Below are positions 4,121 through 14,817 of a DNA stretch of 41,460 nucleotides, in pieces. The notes under the pieces are model-generated. The model saw nothing but the letters and a program-made list of their open reading frames with translations, was not told the DNA's origin and did not search any database. The stretch's first letter is position 1; every line of letters begins with the position of its first letter. The DNA lies in IMG/VR virus record IMGVR_UViG_2579778753_000003; one strand, 5' to 3'. The DNA is from a virus. Its lineage: Duplodnaviria; Heunggongvirae; Uroviricota; Caudoviricetes. The position numbers and the translations under genes were made by a program.

Positions 4121-4243
4121 GAAACCAGAACATGCACACACAAAAAAACCGCTTGCCATGCCGCAATCAGTCAGGTTACATTTCCGCTGCACCTCATAAA
4201 ACGGGTGCCGGGATTTCCACCCCGCTGACAACTACAGCGCACA

Positions 4244-4263
4244 ACCGCGCCAGCGGTTTTTTT
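4244..4263 (+). terminator. Possible short intrinsic terminator
   Basis: accgc-gcca-gcggt hairpin followed by a T7 run, about 125 nt after the 3821-4120 gene. Confidence 0.3.
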
Positions 4264-4442
4264 GTGCGTACTGTATCGCCACGTCTTTTTCGCACACGAA
4301 TTATGGTGGGGCGTACGGGGCCGACTTCGGTCGGGCCGGGTTCTGTAGTTGCCGGTTGTGGAAACCCTGTACGTCTCACCACCCCGAGTTTTCCACCTCT
4401 GGATGGTGAGTTTTCAAAACTTGCAACTACAGAGGCCACACC

Positions 4443-5117: not shown

Positions 5118-7940
5118 ATGACGGCAGAGTACATCAGGGACTGGCAACAACCGCGCCACGCAGTGGGGCGTGAAGGAACGGGGATCCCCGCTCCTGAATC
5201 CGCACTTTCCTCCTGGCTGGATGCCTACCGGGTAGAGAACGAGCGCCGCCAGGAAATGGCTGATGCGGCGTTCTCCGCCACGCCGCTGGGCAACCTGATT
5301 AATAAAAGCCTGGACGCACAGGAAAAACAGGACAAAACCATCACACTGGCAGGAGACGCCAGAAAACAGGCACGCGGCGCAGTGGATGAAGCCATGGCCT
5401 CGCTGCGCCTGCTGCCGTCCTATCTGCGCGATCCGCTTATTCGCCACCTCTCCTTCCTGCGCAAAAAACAGGAAGCCGATCGCCGGAAAGGCAAAAAGAG
5501 CTGGCAGGCGGAACGCTATGCACGCGGAACCCTGCGCAAAATATTCGAACGTCTGGACCGCACCGATCACCGCTGGCTGACACCGGGTTATCGCTCCCTT
5601 GCCGGACGCGAACGCCTGGACGATTTGCTTTACCTGCCGCAGCTCAACAAACACCAGATACAGACGCTGGCCACCATGACGGCGGCGATGTTCAGCAGCA
5701 CCTTCGAAAAACTCTGCGATGGCTTTGGCGCGACCGATGGCGAGCTGACCATGGATGTAACGCTGAAGGCGTATCAGATGCTGGCCCGCATGGCGTTACA
5801 CCTGCACGCCATGCCTCCACATTATGACGCACTGACAACAGACAAAGACCGGAGGAACGAACCAGACACGGAGCTGCTGCCGGGCGCAATCCTTCGCCTG
5901 ACCTGTGCGGAATGGTGGAAACGCAAACTGTGGCTGTTACGTTGCGAGTGGCGGGAAGAACAACTCCGCGCCGCCTGTCTGGTTTCCAGAAAAACATCGC
6001 CCTATCTGAGCCAGGACGCGTTAAGCGAGTTTCGCGCACAGCGCGAGAAAACACGCGATTTCCTGAAAAGTTTCATGCTGGAAAATGAAGACGGGTTCAC
6101 GATTGATCTCGAGACGGTGTATTACGCGGGAGTAAGTAACCCGGTTCACCGTAAGGCAGAAATGATGGCCACCATGAAGGGACTGGAACTTCTGGCCGAA
6201 GCCCGTGGCGACAGAGCGGTGTTTCTGACCGTCACCTGCCCGTCAAAATACCACGCAACAACGGAGAACGGTCATCCGAACCCCAAATGGAACGGGGCCA
6301 CCATGCGCGACTCTAGCGATTACCTGGTTAACACGTTTTTTGCGGCGGTCCGCAAAAAACTGAACCGCGACGGCCTGCGCTGGTATGGCATCCGCACGGT
6401 GGAGCCTCACCATGACGGCGCTGTGCACTGGCATATGATGGTCTTTGCACATCCGGACGAGATTGAAACCATCGTGTCCCACGTCTGCGATATTGCCATT
6501 CAGGAGGACCGCCACGAGCTGGGCGATGACATAACTCCGCGTTTTAAGGCGGAGTATGTCGACGGCTCAAAAGGCACACCAACCAGCTACATCGCCACCT
6601 ACATCGGAAAGAACCTGGACAGCCGCGCCGTGGATGGCATCGACCCGAAAACGGGCAAGCCACGCGTTGACCACGAAACCGGAAAATCAATGGCCGAGAG
6701 CGTGGAGCGCGCCATCGGCTGGGCGCGCCTTCACCGGGTCCGTCAGTTCCAGTTCTTTGGCATCCCCTCCCGTCAGGTGTGGCGTGAACTGCGCCGCCTT
6801 GCCAGCCAGATGGCACGCAATCCGGAAGGCCCGCAACGGCTGAAAGATGATGCAATGGATGCGGTACTCGCTGCCGCCGATGCCGGGTGTTTTGCCACCT
6901 ACATTGAAAAACAGGGTGGCGTGCTTGTTCCACGCAAGGACTACCTGATTCGCACCGCCTACGACCTCGCAGATGAGCTGAACGATTACGGCGAACAGAG
7001 CGTACAGATTTACGGGATCTGGTCACCACTCATCGGGGAATCCTCCCGTGTGTGCACGCATCCGGATAACTGGAAGTTGGTAAGACGTAAACCAGAACCA
7101 GAAGACAACGCCCACGAAAATGGTTTTGACCTTCAGGGCGGCCCTGCCGCCCCTTGGACTCGTGGCAATAACTGTCCCCGTGTACAGGAAACGGACAACA
7201 ACGGGACAGAACAGCCGGAAGAACGGCCAGCACCGTGGCCGCAGCTCCCTGACGGCGTTGAAGTGAACGAATGGATGCGCTCACTGAAACGACACGAACG
7301 CCGGGCGCTGATGCGTTCGCTTCGTGACAAACAGGCAAAAAACAGCAGCGATGAAATGCAGAGCTGGACACAGAGCCGCAAACAGCAGCGGCCTTTGCCT
7401 GATAACCACGAATTACTCGCTAAAGAATGGCGGGAGTCTGCTGAATCTCTCGGCCTGCATATCGGTGAACAACAGATGCAGCACCTGTTACGGGGCGGCA
7501 GTCTGTACGTTGACGGCAGCATCATTGCACCGCAGGGATTTGAAATTGTACGCAAACCGGATACCCGCCCGGACAGCCGAATCACGCAGCTCTGGCAGCG
7601 CCTGAGCCGTAATCACGGCGTAAGCAGCACGGAGATCCGCCATAACCCGGTCTCCAGCTATCTGGCACAGCTCGGGGCATCAGACCCCGAAGCCGCCGCA
7701 CGCCTGGCATCCACACTTCAGCAGGTCCAGAACACCATGAAAACACCCGTTACCGTGCTTTCTGACATGCTGCGCGCCATTCGTGACGCAGAGCACGCAC
7801 AGAGAATCAGAGAAACCACTGAACGCGCCCGCCGCAAAGCAAACCTGCTGAGGGCTGGCCTGACCAGTGGAAACAAAAAACAGACAGAAACGGGATTCAC
7901 AAATCCCGTAAATGAGCAAAAAACGCGCCGCGATATATGA
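5118..7940 (+). CDS. Rolling-circle replication initiator (HUH endonuclease, P2 gpA-like)
   Basis: 940-aa ORF with an HUH-type motif (GAVHWHMMVFAH) and a paired-tyrosine motif (TSYIATYIGKN). It is longer than the 761 aa recalled for P2 gpA. Confidence 0.8.
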   Translation: MTAEYIRDWQQPRHAVGREGTGIPAPESALSSWLDAYRVENERRQEMADAAFSATPLGNLINKSLDAQEKQDKTITLAGDARKQARGAVDEAMASLRLLPSYLRDPLIRHLSFLRKKQEADRRKGKKSWQAERYARGTLRKIFERLDRTDHRWLTPGYRSLAGRERLDDLLYLPQLNKHQIQTLATMTAAMFSSTFEKLCDGFGATDGELTMDVTLKAYQMLARMALHLHAMPPHYDALTTDKDRRNEPDTELLPGAILRLTCAEWWKRKLWLLRCEWREEQLRAACLVSRKTSPYLSQDALSEFRAQREKTRDFLKSFMLENEDGFTIDLETVYYAGVSNPVHRKAEMMATMKGLELLAEARGDRAVFLTVTCPSKYHATTENGHPNPKWNGATMRDSSDYLVNTFFAAVRKKLNRDGLRWYGIRTVEPHHDGAVHWHMMVFAHPDEIETIVSHVCDIAIQEDRHELGDDITPRFKAEYVDGSKGTPTSYIATYIGKNLDSRAVDGIDPKTGKPRVDHETGKSMAESVERAIGWARLHRVRQFQFFGIPSRQVWRELRRLASQMARNPEGPQRLKDDAMDAVLAAADAGCFATYIEKQGGVLVPRKDYLIRTAYDLADELNDYGEQSVQIYGIWSPLIGESSRVCTHPDNWKLVRRKPEPEDNAHENGFDLQGGPAAPWTRGNNCPRVQETDNNGTEQPEERPAPWPQLPDGVEVNEWMRSLKRHERRALMRSLRDKQAKNSSDEMQSWTQSRKQQRPLPDNHELLAKEWRESAESLGLHIGEQQMQHLLRGGSLYVDGSIIAPQGFEIVRKPDTRPDSRITQLWQRLSRNHGVSSTEIRHNPVSSYLAQLGASDPEAAARLASTLQQVQNTMKTPVTVLSDMLRAIRDAEHAQRIRETTERARRKANLLRAGLTSGNKKQTETGFTNPVNEQKTRRDI

Positions 7941-8980: not shown

Positions 8981-9295
8981 ATGACGACACCAACCAGACG
9001 GATAAGTTTCTATCTGAAGCCCGCCGCCGTCAAGAGTGAACAGGAGGCGTGCAATTACCTCGATAGCCTGCCAGCCTCCGAACGCAGCCGCGCGCAACGC
9101 GCGGCCTTTCTGGCTGGGCTAGCGCTCATAAAGCGCAACCCAGCATTTGCCTACTGGATGGCCGAATGGCCAGAGGACAACCTCCCCTTCAATACCGTTA
9201 GCATCAAGGAAACATACCAGGATAATCAGCCTAGCGGAGTTGAATGCAATTTTTATAAAATAAAAAAGAATATTCAGACCTTATTCCCAGAATAA
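8981..9295 (+). CDS. parR: ParR/StbB-like partition adaptor
   Basis: 104-aa ORF 5 nt after parM with an AGGAG Shine-Dalgarno; RISFYLKPAAV...LDSLPASERSRAQRAAFLAGLAL resembles StbB. The track ORF from 8846 overlaps parM. Confidence 0.65.
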   Translation: MTTPTRRISFYLKPAAVKSEQEACNYLDSLPASERSRAQRAAFLAGLALIKRNPAFAYWMAEWPEDNLPFNTVSIKETYQDNQPSGVECNFYKIKKNIQTLFPE

Positions 9296-9343
9296 TCTGA
9301 TAATTGTATGTGAACTAATAAAATACAGACCAACACATCATTC

Positions 9344-9368
9344 TGGCACCCTTGCTAACAGGGTGCCA
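9344..9368. terminator. 9-bp stem hairpin between convergent genes (possible bidirectional terminator)
   Basis: tggcaccct-tgctaac-agggtgcca; lacks a clean U-tract on either strand. Confidence 0.3.
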
Positions 9369-9378
9369 ATGTTTCAAA

Positions 9379-10221
9379 TCATGATGAAATTGCCGAAGTT
9401 TTTTTATCGTGCTGAAGTACCGCAAATGCCATTAAAACCTCAAGAGAATAGCGGCGATAATACTTAACAAAACCATAATAAAATACTCGGGATGCAGCAA
9501 TACAAAACAAGAGAAGAAAACAAAAAGGTAACAGTCTGATATTTATATCTATTAAAAAGGATAGAAGGAGCAGGAACATAAGCAACCAGACTGAAGCGAG
9601 AAAAACAAATGTAATGTTTCTACAAAAACCATACAAAGCAACATAGTTTTGCATTTTCACCTGATGATTTTTAGAATGTTCATACACATAATGATAAGCA
9701 AGGCGAAAAAGATCGCCCCTCAAGCCCTTACGTCGATATAGCGTAGATACAGAAAAAACATTTATATAACCATCTCGTATTTGCGGCCAAAAGACTTTAA
9801 TAAGTATAGAATGCAGTGTGGTTTTATGATGTTCTGCTTTATCAAAAGCTGATACAGGAAATAAAAAAACTCCACGAATAAAATTAACTATACTGAACTT
9901 AGTATTATGTCGTTTTATTTTCAGGGAGCTTCTTTTAGAAAACAGATAAATTGAAGGATACCCAAGTTTACTGTTCATGTATTTTTCAATTAAACAGGAT
10001 GATAGAATAGATATGAAGTGACCTGAAATATATGATAGAACGATTAATACCACATATATAAATACACTTATTATTTCTTTATATTTCAGGATATGGTTAA
10101 GAATACCTTCTATATAAACAGGGTTAATTTCAATAGAAAACAAAAAAAGGATAAACAGGAATAACCCACCTGGAATTAGATAGCCCAAAAAGTCATAAAA
10201 TGAAAACGGATTCTGTGTCAC
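9379..10221 (-). CDS. Multi-pass membrane protein, unknown family (cargo gene 2)
   Basis: 280-aa ORF, AT-rich and codon-atypical for the prophage; hydrophobic helices at both termini (LIPGGLFLFILFLF..., FVFLASVWLLMFLLLLSFL...); no recognisable motif. Confidence 0.7.
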   Translation of the reverse strand: MTQNPFSFYDFLGYLIPGGLFLFILFLFSIEINPVYIEGILNHILKYKEIISVFIYVVLIVLSYISGHFISILSSCLIEKYMNSKLGYPSIYLFSKRSSLKIKRHNTKFSIVNFIRGVFLFPVSAFDKAEHHKTTLHSILIKVFWPQIRDGYINVFSVSTLYRRKGLRGDLFRLAYHYVYEHSKNHQVKMQNYVALYGFCRNITFVFLASVWLLMFLLLLSFLIDINIRLLPFCFLLLFCIAASRVFYYGFVKYYRRYSLEVLMAFAVLQHDKKTSAISS

Positions 10222-10260
10222 ACTTCCCCCTGTGTTACTTGTAAATTAAAGGGTAAAACA

Positions 10261-10758
10261 TTATTTGTTTTTCCGTAAAGGATTAGCTTTCCATCTTCTT
10301 ACTAACCATTCGAATTCTTGATATGTAGTATCCGAATTAATGCTTTCTCTGATTGCTTTAATTAATGGCTCGGCAATATCATATGTCTCTACAACTGTTG
10401 TGTAAGATGTTCTTTTTATCATTTTTTCATCATAAATACCTTCACGAATACTTACAGCAACTCGCTCGTAAAAATTTAAAATATATTGAAATTTTCGACG
10501 CTCGGCCATTTCTTCATCTGTTATTATGCAACCATCACAAGGAAAAACATAAGAACGAAATGATTTGCCTGAACGATGCACTTGTTTCAGGGTATGCAAT
10601 GACTCTATATATTGCATATCTTGCCGACTCTCAAAAAGAAAGTTGGCCGTTTGAGTTTTTTTTGCGGTACGCACATTGTAGATAATGGTTCCAATGGCAA
10701 CCAAAACGCCAAGCAGAACAATAGCATTGCTGATGATTTGTAGTGTTATTGGGTTCAT
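10261..10758 (-). CDS. N-terminally membrane-anchored protein, unknown family (cargo gene 1)
   Basis: 165-aa ORF; N-terminal helix LQIISNAIVLLGVLVAIGTIIY followed by a soluble domain; AT-rich; 39 bp upstream of cargo gene 2 on the same strand. Confidence 0.7.
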   Translation of the reverse strand: MNPITLQIISNAIVLLGVLVAIGTIIYNVRTAKKTQTANFLFESRQDMQYIESLHTLKQVHRSGKSFRSYVFPCDGCIITDEEMAERRKFQYILNFYERVAVSIREGIYDEKMIKRTSYTTVVETYDIAEPLIKAIRESINSDTTYQEFEWLVRRWKANPLRKNK

Positions 10759-10777
10759 CCTATTTCATCCATAAAAA

Positions 10778-10800
10778 AGGCGGGGAGCAAATCCCCGCCT
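10778..10800 (-). terminator. Intrinsic-terminator-like hairpin in the 5' leader of the cargo operon (candidate attenuator)
   Basis: aggcgggga-gcaaa-tccccgcct (9-bp GC-rich stem); on the minus strand it is followed by U6; it ends 20 nt before the ATG at 10758. Confidence 0.5.
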
Positions 10801-10819
10801 CATTAGAGGTCAACGTAGC

Positions 10820-10855
10820 TTAGAAACCATCAAATTCATCATACATTTTTTTCAT
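10820..10855 (-). CDS. Candidate 11-codon leader peptide
   Basis: ATGAAAAAAATGTATGATGAATTTGATGGTTTCTAA (MKKMYDEFDGF) with GAGGGGG 5 nt upstream; its stop lies about 19 nt before the terminator hairpin. Confidence 0.25.
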   Translation of the reverse strand: MKKMYDEFDGF

Positions 10856-10955
10856 ATCAACCCCCTCATAGAAATCATAACCACGTTTTGTGGTTTTTGT
10901 GACGTATAAACTACATCAAAGGCAAGCCACGGTCAAATATATAGGCATGCTTACC

Positions 10956-11101
10956 TGCACAAAAGTGCACAAATTTGCACAATTTTTTTGAACGACTTTT
11001 TACCCTTCCGGCCCGCATGGCGGCTGGATCCGTCAAGGATCCGTGCGTGCACAAAAAAACGCGCTTTTTCTGCGCGCAGGTGACGGGGGAACAGCCCGCG
11101 T
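10956..11101. repeat. Iterated TGCACAA motifs and GC-rich block; candidate cos/packaging region
   Basis: tgcac at 10956, 10966 and 10976 (exact 10-bp period) and again at 11047; ggatccgt repeated at 11026 and 11037; tgcgcgcaggtgacgg at 11071 resembles recalled P2 left-end sequence. The exact cohesive end was not located. Confidence 0.3.
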
Positions 11102-11480
11102 TTCAGGGGGTAAATAGCATTCCCTGAACGATGTCGCAGAGACACAACAGAATGGCCATATTTCTCACGCTGAGCATGAAAAAGGCGTGAGGGCTTTTGA
11201 TTTGATGGGGTGAAAGGTAAGGCCGTCAAAATCGCACTGAGGCAGCGAGAACATACAGTCAACGCGGTGGGATTGCGTAAGAGTCTGACCGTCGATGGTG
11301 GCGATAAACTGGAAGGCGTCGTGAAATTATCTGATTGATACAGGAGCTGGAGAGCCGGGGCATAAATTTTTTATGCCCGGCGAAGCAGCAGACAAGCGAA
11401 GCGCGTCAGTGATGCGGCACCTTGCCGACCACACTTCATAAGTGCAAAATACGAGCAAAGAAATCAATGGAGGCTGTTTT

Positions 11481-12005
11481 ATGGTCATTAATTACAAGCA
11501 GTTACGAGAAAAACGAGAGCAGGTAAAGGAAAGTTTTCGCCGCAATGAAGATCTGACCCCGCTTGTACACCTTGCTCAGGGAATTGTAGATGCTTATGAA
11601 ATCTCTCTGGAGCTGCCATCACAGACATGGACTGATAGCGACGGTAATCGCCAGCATTACGTTTCATGCGGACTGGAAACAACTGAAGGGTTTCGCAGAA
11701 TGCCTTTATCTCAGATTCCTGCCGCTACCCCCAAAGCAAGGGGCGGCAATGATGAGCGAAAACTGATTTTCAGCATTGAGACAGTGGTTGACGACACACC
11801 TGGCGAAGTCGCCTTCGTGCATACTCCTCTTTCGATCGCAATGTATAACGATGAAATACAGGTTCGCGTTAATAATAATATCGTGCCACTTAAAGAAGGT
11901 AATTCACCATACACCACCGTTTGTGAAGCCATTCAATATTACGTTCTCTCTGAAATTGATAATCTCAAGCCTGACGGCACCCAGAAAATGGTTCAACTCT
12001 GGTAA
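11481..12005 (+). CDS. Hypothetical cargo protein
   Basis: ATG at 11481 with GGAGG 7 nt upstream (the track ORF starts at 11442 without a Shine-Dalgarno); 174 aa, no recognisable motif; convergent with the portal gene. Confidence 0.55.
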   Translation: MVINYKQLREKREQVKESFRRNEDLTPLVHLAQGIVDAYEISLELPSQTWTDSDGNRQHYVSCGLETTEGFRRMPLSQIPAATPKARGGNDERKLIFSIETVVDDTPGEVAFVHTPLSIAMYNDEIQVRVNNNIVPLKEGNSPYTTVCEAIQYYVLSEIDNLKPDGTQKMVQLW

Positions 12006-12010
12006 AAAGG

Positions 12011-12036
12011 ACAGCCCCATCACGGGGCTGTTTTTT
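12011..12036. terminator. Bidirectional terminator-like hairpin at convergent gene ends
   Basis: acagcccc-atca-cggggctgt followed by T6 on the plus strand; overlaps the last portal codons. Confidence 0.45.
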
Positions 12037-13066
12037 CATCAAGAAGAGCATAAGAATTAAAACGGATCACCTCTTCGCCAAGCCAGTCATTGATGTGCTT
12101 CATGGCCTCCATGACGGGCATCAGCTCGTTAATTGCGTAAACACGCGCGGCCTTCTCCACATCACCAAACGCACTTTTTTCACCCGGCATCGCCCCCATC
12201 AGTTGCGGCGGAACGCGGTGCGCAGCCAGCACATCATCACGGGATGCCGCCTTAACATTCATGAACTCATCCTTTGCTGTGATCTGCTGGAACGGCAAAA
12301 TTTGCACCCCCTCTTTGCCCCCGTTGGGCGCATGAATGAGCACATTTTTAAACGCACCACCACCACGTGCACCCTGTAGCGTTTCTTTCAGGGAGTCCAT
12401 GCTTTCGCGGTTTACCTGCGCTGCACCGATGTAGATGATGCACCCGGCGTGGGATCCGTTGTCGTAATACAGTTTTCTGAACATGTCCGCCGAATGAGAC
12501 AGGCTGGCCGAGAGTAATGCGCCGAGATATTCCGGCATGCCGTAAATTTCCTGGTTAATGTCAGGATTCATCAGGTGGCACACTTTGCCAGGGCGAAACT
12601 GAAACGCGTCCTTGCCATCCTGCACATACCACCATGATTCAAGATCGCTTCCGCGTCGCATGTATTTCGCCAGGGCGTGCCGTAATTTAAGCGGTTCGCC
12701 GAGCATATTGCTTCGAAGCTCAAGAAATGCGTTACCGAACACAAACCAGTCCAGCGCCAGCGCCGAGAAATCCTGCCGGGAAAGCAGCGGGTGCGGGATG
12801 TAGCAACCGAGTAATACATTGCGCTTAAAGTAAAGCGCAGACTGATGCCAGGACGTTTGCCGGGCAGCTCTTGCCAGACCGTACCAGTCCACCGGGGTTT
12901 CATACCACCGACCGTTATCAGCACAGTACATATTGTCCAGCAGGTCATGCCCGGTCAGGCGGTAAGGACCATCAAATGTGAATGCACTGAGCGACGATTC
13001 TTTCCTGAGCGCATCAGCGAGATCAATGCGTGAACTCATGCGCAATTTTTTATTTTTTCTGCTCAT
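12020..13066 (-). CDS. Q: Portal protein (P2 gpQ-like)
   Basis: 348 aa; ...SWHQSALYFKRN...NPDINQEIYGMPEYL...HRVPPQLMG...GDVEKAARV... resembles recalled gpQ; start overlaps the terminase stop (ATGA). Confidence 0.9.
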   Translation of the reverse strand: MSRKNKKLRMSSRIDLADALRKESSLSAFTFDGPYRLTGHDLLDNMYCADNGRWYETPVDWYGLARAARQTSWHQSALYFKRNVLLGCYIPHPLLSRQDFSALALDWFVFGNAFLELRSNMLGEPLKLRHALAKYMRRGSDLESWWYVQDGKDAFQFRPGKVCHLMNPDINQEIYGMPEYLGALLSASLSHSADMFRKLYYDNGSHAGCIIYIGAAQVNRESMDSLKETLQGARGGGAFKNVLIHAPNGGKEGVQILPFQQITAKDEFMNVKAASRDDVLAAHRVPPQLMGAMPGEKSAFGDVEKAARVYAINELMPVMEAMKHINDWLGEEVIRFNSYALLDEKTAP

Positions 13067-14817
13067 CAGAACTCCATAACCGTGAAACGCTCGTTTTCTC
13101 CTTCGCCGCCAATCGGTTCGTTAATGACAGCAAGCATGGTTGCCCACGCAAGGTCGCCGTGGCTGATCCCCCTCGCACGGTCCGTTTCGTAAGTGATAAA
13201 GCCGCCCGGTGTTTTCACCTTACGCACGGCGTTAAAGGCCGCGACCAGCTCGCGTTCGGCGCGATCGTATTCCCACCGCCCGGCACGCATTATTTGCAGC
13301 ATTTTCAGTACCAGCGACCGTTTTGATGACAGCGTGAAGGTGTACGGAATAGCAGCAGGGAAAAACCGTTTCACTATCTGATAAACAGCCTCCCCGTTCC
13401 CGCCCGTCACATCAATGCCGATGTGTTCCACGTTGTAGCGATACGTGAACTCTTCAATGACTCTGGCCTGTTCTTCAAACTCCAGCCCCTGAACGCGTCG
13501 CGTCTCCACCGTTCGAAAACGGCCACCAGGAACAGCCGGAGGAACCACCACGGACACAGCGCCGCTGTCGCCGTTGCCACTGCTGCCGTTTGCGTCATAT
13601 CCAATCCATACCGGACGATTCCCCATCGGGCGGGGAGCAAAAGGTTTCCAGTCTTTCCAGTCGTCGTATCCATCAACACCGCAGCCAATCAGGATATTCA
13701 GGTTAAATGCCGATTCCCCTTCGCGGACAAACTCACACATATAGAGATTGAGGAACTCGTCTTCGGTGTTTTCATCACGAATTTCGTCGATATCGGTGTG
13801 TTTCCAGCCGTGATTAACCACATCTTCCAGCGTAACAATTTGCCGCCACGTCCGGTCAGGGCAGATAAGCCCGTTATGCAGCGTTTTCCAGTCCACAGAA
13901 AAACGCTGGCGTTTATGCGCGGCCTTTTTCTCGTTCCAGCGGTCGCCGTTCCAGTAGACGTATGCCTCGTGCGTTTCGGTTGATGGCGTGGAGAAGTAGG
14001 TGCGTCGCAGCCCGCTGAGGGTTGCCATAGCGCCAGCCACCTTGCGCAGTTCAGCAAAGCGACTGACCCAGAAAAATTCATCAAAATAAAAATTGCCTGT
14101 GTAGGACTGTGCCGTCGCAGCAGAAGTACCGAGAAAATGCAGTTCTGCGCCGTTGGAGAGGATGATTTTATCGCCCCCTTTCAGCTCCACATCAACTTCA
14201 GATGCAGCCTTCTGAATAATGCTTTTAAACTGGAACGCCTGACGACGCGACGCAGACAAAAAAATCTGGTTACGCTGGTAAGGTTGCGCCACATCGTCAC
14301 GCAGCGCCATCAGCAGTGCTTCCTGTGCAAAATACCAGGTCGCCCCAATCTGTCGGGATTTCAGGATCATCCTGTTACGTATCCCGGCTTCACTGCAAAG
14401 GGTCAGGGAGTCAAACCAGCCCCGCTGATGCCACTCCAGCCTGCTGATGATTTTTTCCCGCAGTGCGGCAATCTGCTCCGGCGTGAAATGATTTTTAAGT
14501 TTTTTCGCCCGGCCTTTCTTTCCTGTGGCCGTCGCATCCGGCTGGCCATCATGCAGTTTTTTAAGCTGCCGGGTCAGCAGGTCTATTTCCTTAAAGTCAC
14601 CACCTGTTTTATTCTGTTTTTCAGTAAGCTGGATGAGGCGCGCATCGATGGACTGCGTGACACGCTGCACGGGTGGCGTTTCATCCCACTGGTCGCGTTT
14701 TTTCCACGCATAAATCGTGTTCGGGTTTATTCCCATCAGACGTGATATTTCTGCGGGCGGATAACCCTGCCAGTAAAGTTGCCGCGCACGCTGGCGCACA
14801 AAAGCGTCCTGAATCAT
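13066..14817 (-). CDS. P: Terminase large (ATPase) subunit (P2 gpP-like)
   Basis: 583 aa immediately upstream of the portal on the same strand; the long soluble ORF matches the gpP position and size. Confidence 0.9.
   Translation of the reverse strand: MIQDAFVRQRARQLYWQGYPPAEISRLMGINPNTIYAWKKRDQWDETPPVQRVTQSIDARLIQLTEKQNKTGGDFKEIDLLTRQLKKLHDGQPDATATGKKGRAKKLKNHFTPEQIAALREKIISRLEWHQRGWFDSLTLCSEAGIRNRMILKSRQIGATWYFAQEALLMALRDDVAQPYQRNQIFLSASRRQAFQFKSIIQKAASEVDVELKGGDKIILSNGAELHFLGTSAATAQSYTGNFYFDEFFWVSRFAELRKVAGAMATLSGLRRTYFSTPSTETHEAYVYWNGDRWNEKKAAHKRQRFSVDWKTLHNGLICPDRTWRQIVTLEDVVNHGWKHTDIDEIRDENTEDEFLNLYMCEFVREGESAFNLNILIGCGVDGYDDWKDWKPFAPRPMGNRPVWIGYDANGSSGNGDSGAVSVVVPPAVPGGRFRTVETRRVQGLEFEEQARVIEEFTYRYNVEHIGIDVTGGNGEAVYQIVKRFFPAAIPYTFTLSSKRSLVLKMLQIMRAGRWEYDRAERELVAAFNAVRKVKTPGGFITYETDRARGISHGDLAWATMLAVINEPIGGEGENERFTVMEF

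What the first reader, a model, noticed from the sequence alone, without database searches (positions are those of the whole stretch)
10778..10855. Leader peptide plus terminator hairpin immediately upstream of the cargo operon: attenuation-like control
On the minus strand an 11-codon ORF (MKKMYDEFDGF) with a strong GAGGGGG Shine-Dalgarno ends about 19 nt before a 9-bp GC-rich hairpin followed by U6, and the cargo gene's ATG follows 20 nt later. There is no room for a promoter between the terminator and the gene, so operon expression must depend on read-through. That layout is classic for attenuation, or the hairpin is the 3' end of a small RNA. Either way expression of the cargo appears tightly gated, as is common for toxic effectors.
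Basis: seen in the sequence. Interest (0 to 1): 0.55.

Follow-up and report, generated by a model that had tools for sequence, protein, structure and literature searches.

The report
Conserved phage micropeptide gene before DUF4760
The 'leader peptide plus terminator' is real, but it is a deeply conserved, so far undescribed 11-residue micropeptide gene (…DEFDGF) that always precedes the DUF4760 membrane protein and also occurs alone in many phages; its terminator probably fixes a peptide-over-protein ratio rather than sensing anything.

Summary
On the minus strand lie SD GAGGGGG, an 11-codon ORF (MKKMYDEFDGF, 10855-10820), a 9-10 bp GC hairpin plus T6 (10801-10773), and the DUF4760 ATG at 10758.

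The window is a P88/P2-like prophage of E. coli ST131. The element heads the most common unexplained cargo of the gpQ/cos-gpA defence hotspot.

It is not a chance ORF:
- 26 of 26 DUF4760 homologues fetched by protein similarity alone, down to about 30% identity, carry an upstream mini-ORF. It ends in a shared acidic-aromatic motif (DEFDGF, DEYDWF, NEGWDGF, EGFDGI…).
- In the last six codons all six third positions vary, against 3 of 12 first and second positions.
- The same peptide gene stands alone in at least 118 viral contigs (lambdoid, ε15-like, T4-like). A composition-matched control pattern gives 10 hits against at least 120.

Classic attenuation is not supported. I found no antiterminator, and the leader shows no run or excess of any one amino acid's codons. 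The terminator is clade-specific: it is replaced by TAATG coupling in Pasteurellaceae.

Best reading: a micropeptide/DUF4760 two-gene module in which a constitutive, leaky terminator makes peptide far exceed membrane protein. The peptide's target and function remain inferred.

The parts
10906..10934 (-). Predicted sigma-70 promoter of the mini-gene: -35 TTGACC (10934-10929), 17-nt spacer, -10 TAGTTT (10911-10906). The transcription start is inferred at about 10899.
   Evidence: Read from the sequence. The same TTGACY-17-TA[AG][TA]TT arrangement lies 51-73 nt before the mini-ORF ATG in 15 of 22 homologous leaders. The built-in scan did not list it, because its -10 hexamer falls below that scan's cut-off. 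Inferred, not mapped.
10879..10895 (-). 5' stem-loop of the transcript (AACCAC-AAAAC-GTGGTT).
   Evidence: Folding results. A stem-loop at this position, with a different sequence each time, occurs in most homologous leaders. This suggests a 5' stabilising hairpin (inference).
10861..10867 (-). Shine-Dalgarno GAGGGGG, 5 nt before the ATG.
   Evidence: GGAGG or GGGGG is conserved at this position in all aligned leaders.
10820..10855 (-). Mini-ORF: 11 codons plus TAA, encoding MKKMYDEFDGF. It belongs to a micropeptide family ending in [FY]DEFDGF-COOH.
   Evidence: synonymous variation, 26 of 26 co-occurrence with DUF4760. (at least 120 viral loci against 10 for the control).
10816..10829 (-). 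Small 4-bp hairpin (UGGU/GCUA) with the last codon and the stop codon in its loop.
   Evidence: RNAalifold. 3 of its 4 pairs show changes on both sides across 18 leaders. Function unknown.
10805..10814 (-). Anti-SD segment GUUGACCUCU, which pairs with the SD region (10866-10857) and so encloses the mini-ORF in a stem-loop of -9.5 kcal/mol.
   Evidence: The minimum-energy fold pairs the SD with ACCUC in 15 of 18 homologous leaders. 81% of cells are paired.
10773..10801 (-). Rho-independent terminator: stem GAGGCGGGGA/UCCCCGCCUU, loop UUUGC, U6.
   Evidence: (-18.9 kcal/mol). 98% of cells are paired across 18 leaders, with one GC-to-AU compensatory pair. Non-homologous terminators sit at the same place in L055, L202 and L204.
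10261..10758 (-). DUF4760 protein: 165 aa, an N-terminal TM helix plus an all-helical cytoplasmic domain. It is the partner gene of the mini-ORF.
   Evidence: Pfam PF15956, E = 1.8e-34. PHROG 2284, function unknown. AF2 model pLDDT 93.8. It is system 3 of the P2 hotspot in Rousset et al. 2022, Table S5B.
9379..10221 (-). 280-aa protein. Rousset et al. 2022, Table S5B, record 4 TM helices for the same sequence. It is the second cargo gene of this lineage only.
   Evidence: PHROG 12528. Present only in close relatives of this prophage; absent from the other mini-ORF/DUF4760 loci. Listed as protein 2 of system 3 in Table S5B.
11059..11077 (-). Upstream terminator-like hairpin (GCGCGC…GCGCGT plus T7), which would insulate the mini-gene from minus-strand transcription coming from the gpQ side.
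   Evidence: Its role is inferred.

Best explanation
The region is a self-contained micropeptide gene, and it is the conserved first gene of the DUF4760 module.

A sigma-70 promoter (10934-10906) drives an RNA with five features in order:
- a 5' stem-loop;
- a strong SD;
- an 11-codon ORF (MKKMYDEFDGF);
- an anti-SD that closes the ORF into a stem-loop;
- a strong intrinsic terminator.

Most transcripts end at about 10773, giving a stable RNA of about 125 nt that makes the peptide. A minority read through into DUF4760 and the 280-aa membrane protein, for which no other promoter is visible.

The hairpin therefore acts as a fixed, non-sensing attenuator that sets peptide far above membrane protein, as the terminator between toxI and toxN does in ToxIN. 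The peptide acts in trans through its acidic-aromatic C-terminus, most probably on the cytoplasmic domain of DUF4760.

Shown:
- the anatomy;
- selection at the level of the peptide;
- strict co-occurrence with DUF4760;
- recurrence of terminators at this position;
- absence of an antiterminator;
- stand-alone copies of the peptide gene.

Inferred:
- the promoter and transcript ends;
- the excess of peptide;
- trans action of the peptide;
- DUF4760 as its target.
For: (1) Co-occurrence. All 21 DUF4760 loci fetched from GTDB genomes by protein similarity alone have an SD-preceded 9-15-codon ORF just upstream ending in the motif. So do 5 of 5 far more distant representatives: MREVIDGL, MKPEGFDGI, MLTTLATFFEGDYGF, …KDGWEDL, …SWEDR.

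(2) Peptide-level selection. In 15 distinct versions of the last six codons, 6 of 6 third positions vary against 3 of 12 first and second positions. The replacements are conservative: F/Y, G/W, D/E, F/L.

(3) The terminator recurs but is not universal. It is present in nearly all Enterobacterales leaders (98% of cells paired). It is present with unrelated sequence in L055, L202 and L204. It is replaced by TAATG stop/start overlap in Pasteurellaceae. The constant feature is therefore the peptide-protein pair.

(4) No antiterminator. The terminator persists when the ORF is masked, and the only competitor is a 4-bp CCUC/GAGG helix.

(5) Action in trans is plausible:
- an 80%-identical copy lies on phage-plasmid pMS21199B with no same-strand gene downstream;
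- 118 of 143 viral loci with the motif have no DUF4760 in the stretch held;
- in ε15-like phages the mini-ORF is the last gene before a convergent terL;
- in some phages the motif is a C-terminal tail of larger proteins;
- tandem versions exist, such as MKDEFEWCDEFDGF and MMCSEGWDVCNEGWDGF.

(6) The second peptide variant (NEGWDGF), linked to DUF4760 in Pasteurellaceae, also has stand-alone phage copies.

(7) The locus is the known P2 defence hotspot, and DUF4760 is its third most frequent cargo.
Against: - There is no expression data. The promoter, the 3' end, terminator efficiency and translation of the ORF are all predictions.
- Nothing here shows that the peptide binds DUF4760. Co-occurrence would also fit a cis-acting leader.
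- The terminator stem sequence is almost invariant among the Enterobacterales copies. Its conservation there could reflect recent common ancestry rather than selection.
- SD sequestration (-9.5 kcal/mol) would reduce, not increase, peptide synthesis from the full-length short RNA.
- DUF4760 toxicity or defence activity has never been demonstrated. It was catalogued, and I found no test of it, in Rousset et al. 2022.
Confidence: 0.5

Rival explanations
1. Nascent-peptide (arrest-peptide) leader. The conserved C-terminal residues stall the ribosome at the stop codon in response to a small molecule or a phage cue. The stalled ribosome changes RNA folding, termination or downstream translation, so DUF4760 is induced only on signal (TnaC/SpeFL/ErmCL-like logic).
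For: - The conserved residues sit exactly at the C-terminus next to the stop codon, as in arrest peptides.
- A covarying 4-bp hairpin holds the stop codon in its loop.
- The SD is sequestered by an anti-SD just after the stop.
- In the lambdoid 8-codon versions the stop lies only 5 nt from a terminator-like hairpin that a stalled ribosome would mask.
- In Pasteurellaceae the ORF is translationally coupled to DUF4760.
Against: - In the window the stop is 19 nt from the stem, so a ribosome there cannot prevent hairpin formation, and no alternative structure exists.
- The last residue varies (F, L, I, R, N, G) across the family.
- Many copies have nothing downstream to regulate: a convergent gene or the end of an operon.
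- The motif also occurs as the tail of 70-aa and of gp49/66-family proteins.
Confidence: 0.2
2. The peptide is an independent phage effector aimed at a host or rival-phage protein: an acidic tail ending in Phe, mimicking docking tails such as SSB-Ct or polymerase clamp-binding tails. DUF4760 is linked to it for another reason, for example as a guard or immunity partner, and the terminator simply ends the peptide gene.
For: - Most copies are stand-alone, in lytic and temperate phages of unrelated types. Their neighbourhoods are accessory or anti-defence-like: Tad2-like, ClpX zinc-finger, N4 gp49/Sf6 gp66 family, and near gp47 in Karamvirus PG7.
- Fused-tail and tandem forms exist.
- From my own knowledge, there is a resemblance to the RB69 polymerase tail KKASLFDMFDF and to SSB DFDDDIPF. 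I did not test this.
Against: - It does not explain 26 of 26 co-occurrence with DUF4760 across about 30%-identity homologues, nor the parallel divergence of peptide and protein.
- The SSB-Ct hallmark Pro-Phe and the clamp motif QL[SD]LF are absent from the peptide.
Confidence: 0.15
3. The roughly 125-nt terminated transcript is a regulatory small RNA (an Hfq-type sRNA or an RNA antitoxin), and the ORF is incidental.
For: The architecture of 5' hairpin, internal stem-loop and terminator with a U-tail resembles an sRNA. The transcript ends before the cargo gene.
Against: - Third-codon positions vary freely while the amino acids stay fixed.
- The 5' part is not conserved in sequence.
- No Rfam family reaches threshold; the best sub-threshold hit is SorX at 19.3 bits against a gathering score of 46.6.
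- Distant homologues keep the peptide but not the RNA sequence.
Confidence: 0.05
4. A chance short ORF next to an ordinary terminator that ends some upstream transcript.
For: Short ORFs with SD-like sequences are common; other chance candidates turned up in the blind scan.
Against: The motif-bearing ORF is found in 26 of 26 independent loci. There is at least 12-fold enrichment over a composition-matched control pattern. Synonymous substitutions predominate in the last six codons.
Confidence: 0.01

Closest known systems
Leader-peptide transcription attenuators (trp, his, pheA, thr operons of enterobacteria)
   Same: A short SD-preceded ORF is followed by an intrinsic terminator directly upstream of the structural gene. 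No promoter lies in between, so expression needs read-through.
   Different: There is no antiterminator/terminator alternative. The leader shows no run or excess of any one amino acid's codons. The peptide sequence itself is conserved across phyla. The mini-ORF exists without any downstream gene. The terminator is dispensable in some clades.
ToxIN (type III toxin-antitoxin), where a terminator between toxI and toxN sets the antitoxin:toxin ratio (own knowledge)
   Same: The first, small component is separated from the second, protein component by a leaky intrinsic terminator inside one transcription unit. The setting is a mobile or phage defence context. Phage-borne copies of the small component are conceivable as mimics.
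   Different: The small component here is a translated 8-19-residue peptide, not an RNA repeat. Toxicity of DUF4760 and neutralisation by the peptide are untested.
Regulatory arrest peptides (TnaC, SpeFL, ErmCL, cat/cmlA leaders) (own knowledge)
   Same: A very short ORF whose conserved residues lie at the C-terminus next to the stop codon, upstream of a regulated gene.
   Different: The geometry in the window does not let a stalled ribosome touch the terminator. Stand-alone and fused-tail copies argue for a trans-acting product.
Very small phage or plasmid peptide genes: mccA (7 codons), T4 Stp (26 aa), arbitrium AimP (own knowledge)
   Same: These are genuine genes of a few codons with sequence-specific function, carried by mobile elements.
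   Different: There is no sequence similarity, no modification enzyme (MccB) and no secretion or processing signal. The partner here is a DUF4760 membrane protein.
EP domains of plant EDS1/PAD4/SAG101 (for the partner protein DUF4760)
   Different: Sequence identity is 7-10%. Foldseek E-values are not significant (0.34 or worse). The fold is all-helical and so prone to spurious matches. There is no lipase-like domain. This is a lead, not a membership claim.

Membership tests
Classical leader-peptide attenuator (trp/his type) | Short translated leader ORF with SD upstream of the operon | tested here: met
   SD GAGGGGG, ATG 10855, 11 codons; conserved in homologues. Translation itself was not measured.
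Classical leader-peptide attenuator (trp/his type) | Leader enriched in tandem codons for the regulating amino acid | tested here: not met
   MKKMYDEFDGF has no tandem run. What is conserved across homologues is a sequence motif (DEFDGF / NEGWDGF / EGFDGI), not a composition.
Classical leader-peptide attenuator (trp/his type) | Mutually exclusive antiterminator and terminator hairpins coupled to ribosome position | tested here: not met
   With the ORF and footprint constrained as unpaired, the terminator still forms (-26.4 kcal/mol structure). The only competitor is a 4-bp helix. The stop codon is 19 nt from the stem.
Classical leader-peptide attenuator (trp/his type) | Intrinsic terminator immediately before the first structural gene, with no intervening promoter | tested here: met
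   Hairpin 10801-10777 plus T6, ATG at 10758, and no promoter-like site in between.
Arrest-peptide regulators (TnaC/SpeFL/Erm leaders) | Peptide sequence conserved near the C-terminus or PTC | tested here: met
   The last six codons are under purifying selection.
Arrest-peptide regulators (TnaC/SpeFL/Erm leaders) | Ribosome stalling on the leader | not testable with these tools
   Needs toeprinting or Ribo-seq.
Arrest-peptide regulators (TnaC/SpeFL/Erm leaders) | Always placed so as to control a downstream gene in cis | tested here: not met
   Stand-alone copies are followed by a convergent gene or by nothing on the same strand: pMS21199B and an ε15-like phage. 118 of 143 viral loci have no DUF4760 in the stretch held.
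Toxin-antitoxin-like pair with terminator-set stoichiometry (ToxIN-like logic) | Two components strictly co-inherited, with the small one first | tested here: met
   26 of 26 DUF4760 loci have the mini-ORF upstream.
Toxin-antitoxin-like pair with terminator-set stoichiometry (ToxIN-like logic) | Terminator between the two components | tested here: inconclusive
   Present in most Enterobacterales and in L202/L204. Absent in Pasteurellaceae, L203 and L205.
Toxin-antitoxin-like pair with terminator-set stoichiometry (ToxIN-like logic) | The second component is toxic and is neutralised by the first | not testable with these tools
   Needs expression experiments. The only indirect hint is IS421 inserted in the hairpin in 9 genomes.
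Known RNA families (Rfam 15) | Match at or above the gathering score | tested here: not met
   Only C4 and isrK, at 4189-4386, pass in the window. In 10700-11100 the best hit is SorX at 19.3 bits against a gathering score of 46.6.
P2-like gpQ/cos-gpA hotspot cargo (Rousset et al. 2022, PMC9122126) | Located between portal gpQ and replication gene gpA of a P2-like prophage | tested here: met
   gpQ 12020-13066(-), gpP 13066-14817(-), gpA 5118-7940(+). The annotated phage relatives show the same order.
P2-like gpQ/cos-gpA hotspot cargo (Rousset et al. 2022, PMC9122126) | Same proteins as catalogued system 3 (DUF4760 plus a 4-TM protein) | tested here: met
   The Table S5B protein 1 sequence equals the window's DUF4760, and protein 2 equals the 280-aa ORF. 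The table records 1102 occurrences.
Known anti-phage defence systems (PADLOC-DB 2.0.0) | HMM match of the cargo proteins | tested here: not met
   DUF4760 gives no hit. The 280-aa protein gives only a weak Csx27 hit (1.1e-5, 23.9 bits).
SSB C-terminal tail / clamp-binding tail mimics | Consensus D-D-D-I-P-F-COOH, or QL[SD]LF | tested here: not met
   The peptide ends FDGF. It lacks Pro-Phe and it lacks Gln/Leu. The consensus motifs are quoted from my own knowledge. The resemblance is limited to acidic residues plus a C-terminal Phe.

The most novel reading that the evidence does not exclude
DEFDGF-type micropeptides (8-19 residues, core E-(G)-[FWY]-[DEG]-[GWD]-[FLI]-COOH) are the cognate ligand or antidote of the DUF4760 family of membrane-anchored, EP-domain-like proteins. 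DUF4760 would then be a widespread but uncharacterised prophage defence effector. The many stand-alone, tandem or fused copies in lytic and temperate phages (ε15-like, lambdoid, T4-like Karamvirus) would be counter-defence mimics of that peptide. This would be a peptide-based toxin/antitoxin-like immunity system, with one of the smallest functional genes known and a matching phage escape strategy.
Probability: 0.3. Interest if true: 0.9.

Novelty: new variant of a known kind. Interest (0 to 1): 0.7.

Why it matters
DUF4760 is the third most frequent cargo of the E. coli P2-prophage defence hotspot, with 1102 occurrences in Rousset et al. 2022, and it has no known function. It is carried by the pandemic ST131 lineage.

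Every family member examined is preceded by a conserved micropeptide gene that annotation pipelines miss, and the same peptide is carried alone by many unrelated phages. That turns an opaque 'hypothetical protein' into a testable two-component hypothesis: peptide plus receptor or effector, with terminator-set stoichiometry and possible phage mimicry.

It also adds a well-supported case to the very small set of functional bacterial or phage genes shorter than 12 codons. And it warns that 'leader peptide plus terminator' layouts in defence islands may hide real trans-acting products.

Tried and rejected
- Rfam at gathering and at E-value thresholds: no family covers the element.
- Full-text literature searches for 'DEFDGF', 'DUF4760', small-ORF/anti-phage terms and EP-domain/prophage terms: nothing relevant, apart from the hotspot catalogue.
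- PADLOC gave nothing useful for the cargo, and PHROGs returned only unknown-function families.
- A promoter between hairpin and ATG, or one overlapping the leader: none in the scan. The TTGACC at 10814-10809 (inside the anti-SD segment) has no acceptable -10 and is not conserved as a promoter.
- An antiterminator: sought by folding the nascent RNA without the 3' arm and by constraining the ribosome footprint. Only a 4-bp CCUC/GAGG helix was found.
- tblastn of the 21-aa T4-like peptide against the phage collection gave no match; the cause was not established.
- BLAST of a NEGWDGF phage contig against the phage collection gave no match, so its host remains unknown.
- The idea that the 280-aa protein is an obligatory partner was rejected: it occurs only in close relatives of this prophage.
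- A peptide-DUF4760 complex model was not attempted. The structure tool as described folds one protein per job and accepts only window or database sequences.
- A search of the 70-aa PF26882-type protein against my Pfam copy gave no hit.
Full report
**1. Observation**

On the minus strand the sequence reads as follows:
- GAGGGGG (10867-10861), then 5 nt.
- ATG AAA AAA ATG TAT GAT GAA TTT GAT GGT TTC TAA (10855-10820; MKKMYDEFDGF).
- 19 nt, then AGGCGGGGA-TTTGC-TCCCCGCCT (10800-10778; 10 bp if G10801·T10777 is counted).
- A T-run to 10773, then 14 nt, then the ATG (10758) of a 165-aa ORF. GenBank and RefSeq annotate the same start.

The hairpin is the strongest terminator-like site in 9000-12500 and folds at -18.9 kcal/mol. 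The leader folds better than 200 of 200 shuffles (z = -3.0). No promoter-like site lies between hairpin and ATG.

**2. Context**

The window is a P88-like (Xuanwuvirus; P2-like Peduoviridae) prophage that is common in E. coli ST131. Its layout is:
- gpP at 13066-14817 and gpQ at 12020-13066, both on the minus strand;
- gpA at 5118-7940, followed by ParM and a partition gene, on the plus strand.

The element therefore heads the cargo of the gpQ/cos-gpA hotspot that Rousset et al. described as a reservoir of anti-phage systems (PMC9122126). Backbone homology with other P88-like phages ends near 10955, so the promoter, mini-ORF and terminator belong to the variable cassette.

The cargo is a Pfam DUF4760 protein (E = 1.8e-34) plus a 280-aa protein with four TM helices. 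Both sequences appear verbatim as 'system 3, DUF4760, 1102 occurrences in P2 hotspot' in Table S5B of that paper. No function is given there and the mini-ORF is not mentioned. PADLOC has no model for DUF4760, and PHROGs lists both proteins as unknown. The 280-aa gene is confined to close relatives of this prophage, so the recurring unit is mini-ORF plus DUF4760.

**3. The mini-ORF is a conserved coding gene**

A sensitive BLAST of the 221-nt leader found two diverged copies:
- one 80% identical, on phage-plasmid pMS21199B, with no DUF4760 and no same-strand gene after it;
- one 76% identical, in another P2-like prophage, upstream of DUF4760 alone.

The three peptides are MKKMYDEFDGF, MKKRYDEFDGF and MNKAFDEFDGF. 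They differ by synonymous changes, and the stop codon switches between TAA and TGA.

For an unbiased test I fetched DUF4760 loci from GTDB genomes by protein similarity only and read upstream of each. I then ran a blind search for an SD followed by a 7-16-codon ORF. All 21 loci have such an ORF ending in a related motif:
- MKKLFDEFDGF, MTKAYDEFDGF and MKKWFDEFDGF in several genera;
- MEAMFDEYDWF (Rahnella);
- MQLDEYDGF (Pantoea);
- MIKFIRDEFEGF (Morganella);
- MRYSDEYEGL (Entomohabitans);
- MKGLNEGWDGF and MNKFDLNEGWDGF (Pasteurellaceae, 32-34% identical DUF4760);
- MTLNEGWGG (Rhodovulum);
- …QEGFGGN (a Pseudomonadota MAG).

In the 15 distinct Enterobacterales versions of the last six codons, all six third positions vary but only 3 of 12 first and second positions do. 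Pairwise, there are 261 synonymous against 110 non-synonymous codon differences, and the latter are conservative.

A profile search shows that DUF4760 is a large family, with 2584 clusters at E ≤ 1e-3. Five distant representatives were looked up, and all five again have the upstream ORF: MREVIDGL, MKPEGFDGI, MLTTLATFFEGDYGF, MFLSTMLPVVLGKDGWEDL and MKFKDSWEDR. The family-wide core is roughly E-(G)-[FWY]-[DEG]-[GWD]-[FLI]-COOH.

**4. The same peptide gene exists on its own in many phages**

A control with the same codons in permuted order (DGFDEF-stop) hits 10.

The forms found:
- 8-residue MxDEFDGF, where x is H, K, Y, T, R, N, L or F;
- 10-residue MKKFDEFDGF;
- 13-residue MKKKRMNDEFDGF;
- tandem MKDEFEWCDEFDGF and MLDEFEGFDEFDGF;
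- a 21-residue MFSLRKFDEEDFEFFDEFDGF, annotated as CG98_gp053 between a-gt.2 and gp47 in the T4-like Karamvirus PG7.

Their positions and neighbours:
- In ε15-like/TL-2011b-like phages MHDEFDGF sits between a 112-aa regulator-like gene and terS.
- Elsewhere the ATG overlaps the stop of an N4 gp49/Sf6 gp66-family gene.
- Other neighbours include Tad2-like, ClpX zinc-finger, metallophosphatase and WYL proteins.
- In one ε15-like phage the mini-ORF, there fused in frame to the gp49/66-family CDS, is followed by a convergent terL. It is therefore the last gene of its operon.
- A 70-aa family carries the motif as its C-terminal tail (…FYDEFDGF).

Only 25 of the 143 motif-bearing viral loci contain a DUF4760 within the stretch held.

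The Pasteurellaceae variant NEGWDGF behaves the same way. One viral locus has it coupled to DUF4760. Six have it stand-alone as M(M)CNEGWDGF, including the tandem MMCSEGWDVCNEGWDGF.

**5. RNA anatomy and the attenuation question**

A sigma-70-type promoter (TTGACY, 17 nt, TA[AG][TA]TT) lies 51-73 nt before the mini-ORF ATG in 15 of 22 leaders. In the window it is TTGACC 10934-10929 and TAGTTT 10911-10906. It is followed by a 5' stem-loop whose sequence differs between lineages.

The SD pairs with an ACCUC-containing segment just after the stop. In the window this is 10866-10857 with 10814-10805, at -9.5 kcal/mol. The pairing appears in the minimum-energy fold of 15 of 18 leaders.

Counts on the 18-sequence alignment:
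- 89% of cells are paired, against 39-59% when the partners are slid.
- The covariation score is 0.226, against 0.04-0.09.
- A 4-bp hairpin with the stop codon in its loop has compensatory changes in 3 of its 4 pairs.
- The terminator stem is 98% paired but almost invariant, with one GC-to-AU pair in two sequences.

Terminators of unrelated sequence occupy the same position in Pantoea (L055) and in two metagenomic homologues (L202, L204). Pasteurellaceae, L203 and L205 have none, and instead show stop/start overlap or a gap of 8-26 nt.

I found no antiterminator. With the SD-to-stop region plus 10 nt beyond the stop codon constrained as single-stranded, the terminator still forms. In the nascent RNA lacking the 3' arm, only a 4-bp CCUC/GAGG helix touches the 5' arm. 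A ribosome at the stop codon would reach to about 10808-10810, taking the footprint size from general knowledge, and so ends short of the stem at 10801.

The layout is attenuator-like in anatomy: the terminator lies inside the 5' part of the transcription unit and read-through is obligatory. It lacks the defining switch of classical attenuation.

**6. Most likely mechanism**

I take the element to be a micropeptide gene whose terminator acts as a fixed, leaky valve. The promoter makes mostly a short, structured and therefore probably stable RNA that encodes the peptide. A minority of transcripts extend into DUF4760 and the 4-TM protein, giving peptide in large excess over membrane protein.

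Three observations make a trans-acting peptide that works with or on DUF4760 the most economical reading (confidence 0.5):
- strict co-occurrence across the whole DUF4760 family;
- parallel divergence of peptide and protein;
- the existence of terminator-free but still tightly linked arrangements.

The logic resembles ToxIN, where a terminator between the small and the large component sets their ratio (own knowledge).

What is shown is the anatomy, the conservation, the co-occurrence and the lack of a switch. What is inferred is the transcript ends, the stoichiometry, peptide-DUF4760 binding, and any toxicity or defence role.

The rivals are a nascent-peptide sensor (0.2), a peptide with an independent host or phage target (0.15), an sRNA (0.05) and chance (0.01). 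Their evidence is listed in the respective fields.

**7. The partner protein**

AF2 gives a confident all-helical model of DUF4760 (pLDDT 93.8): one long N-terminal helix that includes the TM segment, and a helical bundle.

**8. Novelty**

I found no publication mentioning the peptide motif. For DUF4760 I found only catalogue entries. The regulatory layout is a variant of a known kind: an upstream small ORF plus a terminator. The peptide family and its obligatory pairing with DUF4760 appear to be undescribed.

If the peptide proves to be the ligand or antidote of DUF4760, and the stand-alone phage copies prove to be mimics, this would be a new type of peptide-based immunity module (probability about 0.3).

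Noticed in passing
window 10777-10801; L003, L018, L027, L036; E. coli genomes H123-H131: IS421 (IS4 family) is inserted inside the terminator hairpin, with target duplication GGGATTTGCTCCC. This separates the promoter and mini-ORF from DUF4760 in 9 complete E. coli genomes. Viral contigs show the IS in both orientations at the same site, which implies independent insertions: either target preference or selection against DUF4760 expression.
   Followed up: partly
[not shown]
   Followed up: partly
window 4189-4386 (+): An isrK-like RNA (63.6 bits) is followed directly by a C4 antisense RNA (80.5 bits). Both pass the Rfam gathering scores. This is an immI-type antirepressor control region elsewhere in the prophage.
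   Followed up: no
window 10955-10980 (-): Three GTGCA repeats at a spacing of about 10-11 nt (GTGCAAATTTGTGCACTTTTGTGCAGG) lie just upstream of the mini-gene promoter, at the edge of the conserved backbone. Similar repeats occur in other P2-like prophages (L041, L042, L044). The start of the Xuanwuvirus P884B11 record maps to about window 11001, so these may belong to the cos/terminase-binding region.
   Followed up: no
L082, L175, L010 (viral contigs, some from phages of 80-170 kb): Further mini-ORFs or protein tails ending in …DEHPDF, or containing DEFEGF, lie next to the DEFDGF mini-ORFs. An example is MPCVLDEFEGFDEHPDF in L175. This suggests a wider family of acidic-aromatic peptide genes.
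   Followed up: no
L071/L091/L137 upstream, and L095/L083/L152/L158 downstream, of the 8-codon mini-ORF: A perfect palindrome GTGACATGTCAC accompanies the stand-alone mini-ORF in ε15-like/lambdoid phages, next to a terminator-like hairpin. It may be an operator or protein-binding site.
   Followed up: no
L024/L029, L081/L086/L090/L107/L150: There are decayed or start-less copies of the mini-ORF. In one group the ATG is lost and the terminator eroded. In another, only …LNDEFDGF* is left, out of frame with the upstream gene. Copies can therefore be lost or recombined away.
   Followed up: no
L040 (IMGVR_UViG_3300007747_000080) against window about 10928-11012: One otherwise identical viral contig lacks about 85 bp, including the GTGCA repeats and the -35 hexamer of the mini-gene promoter. 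This may be a junction at the cos ends or a real deletion.
   Followed up: no
L202 about 330-420: A distant mini-ORF/DUF4760 pair lies directly after a sequence that looks like a tRNA gene, flanked by regulator genes. This suggests a small island integrated at a tRNA. I did not run ARAGORN on it.
   Followed up: no
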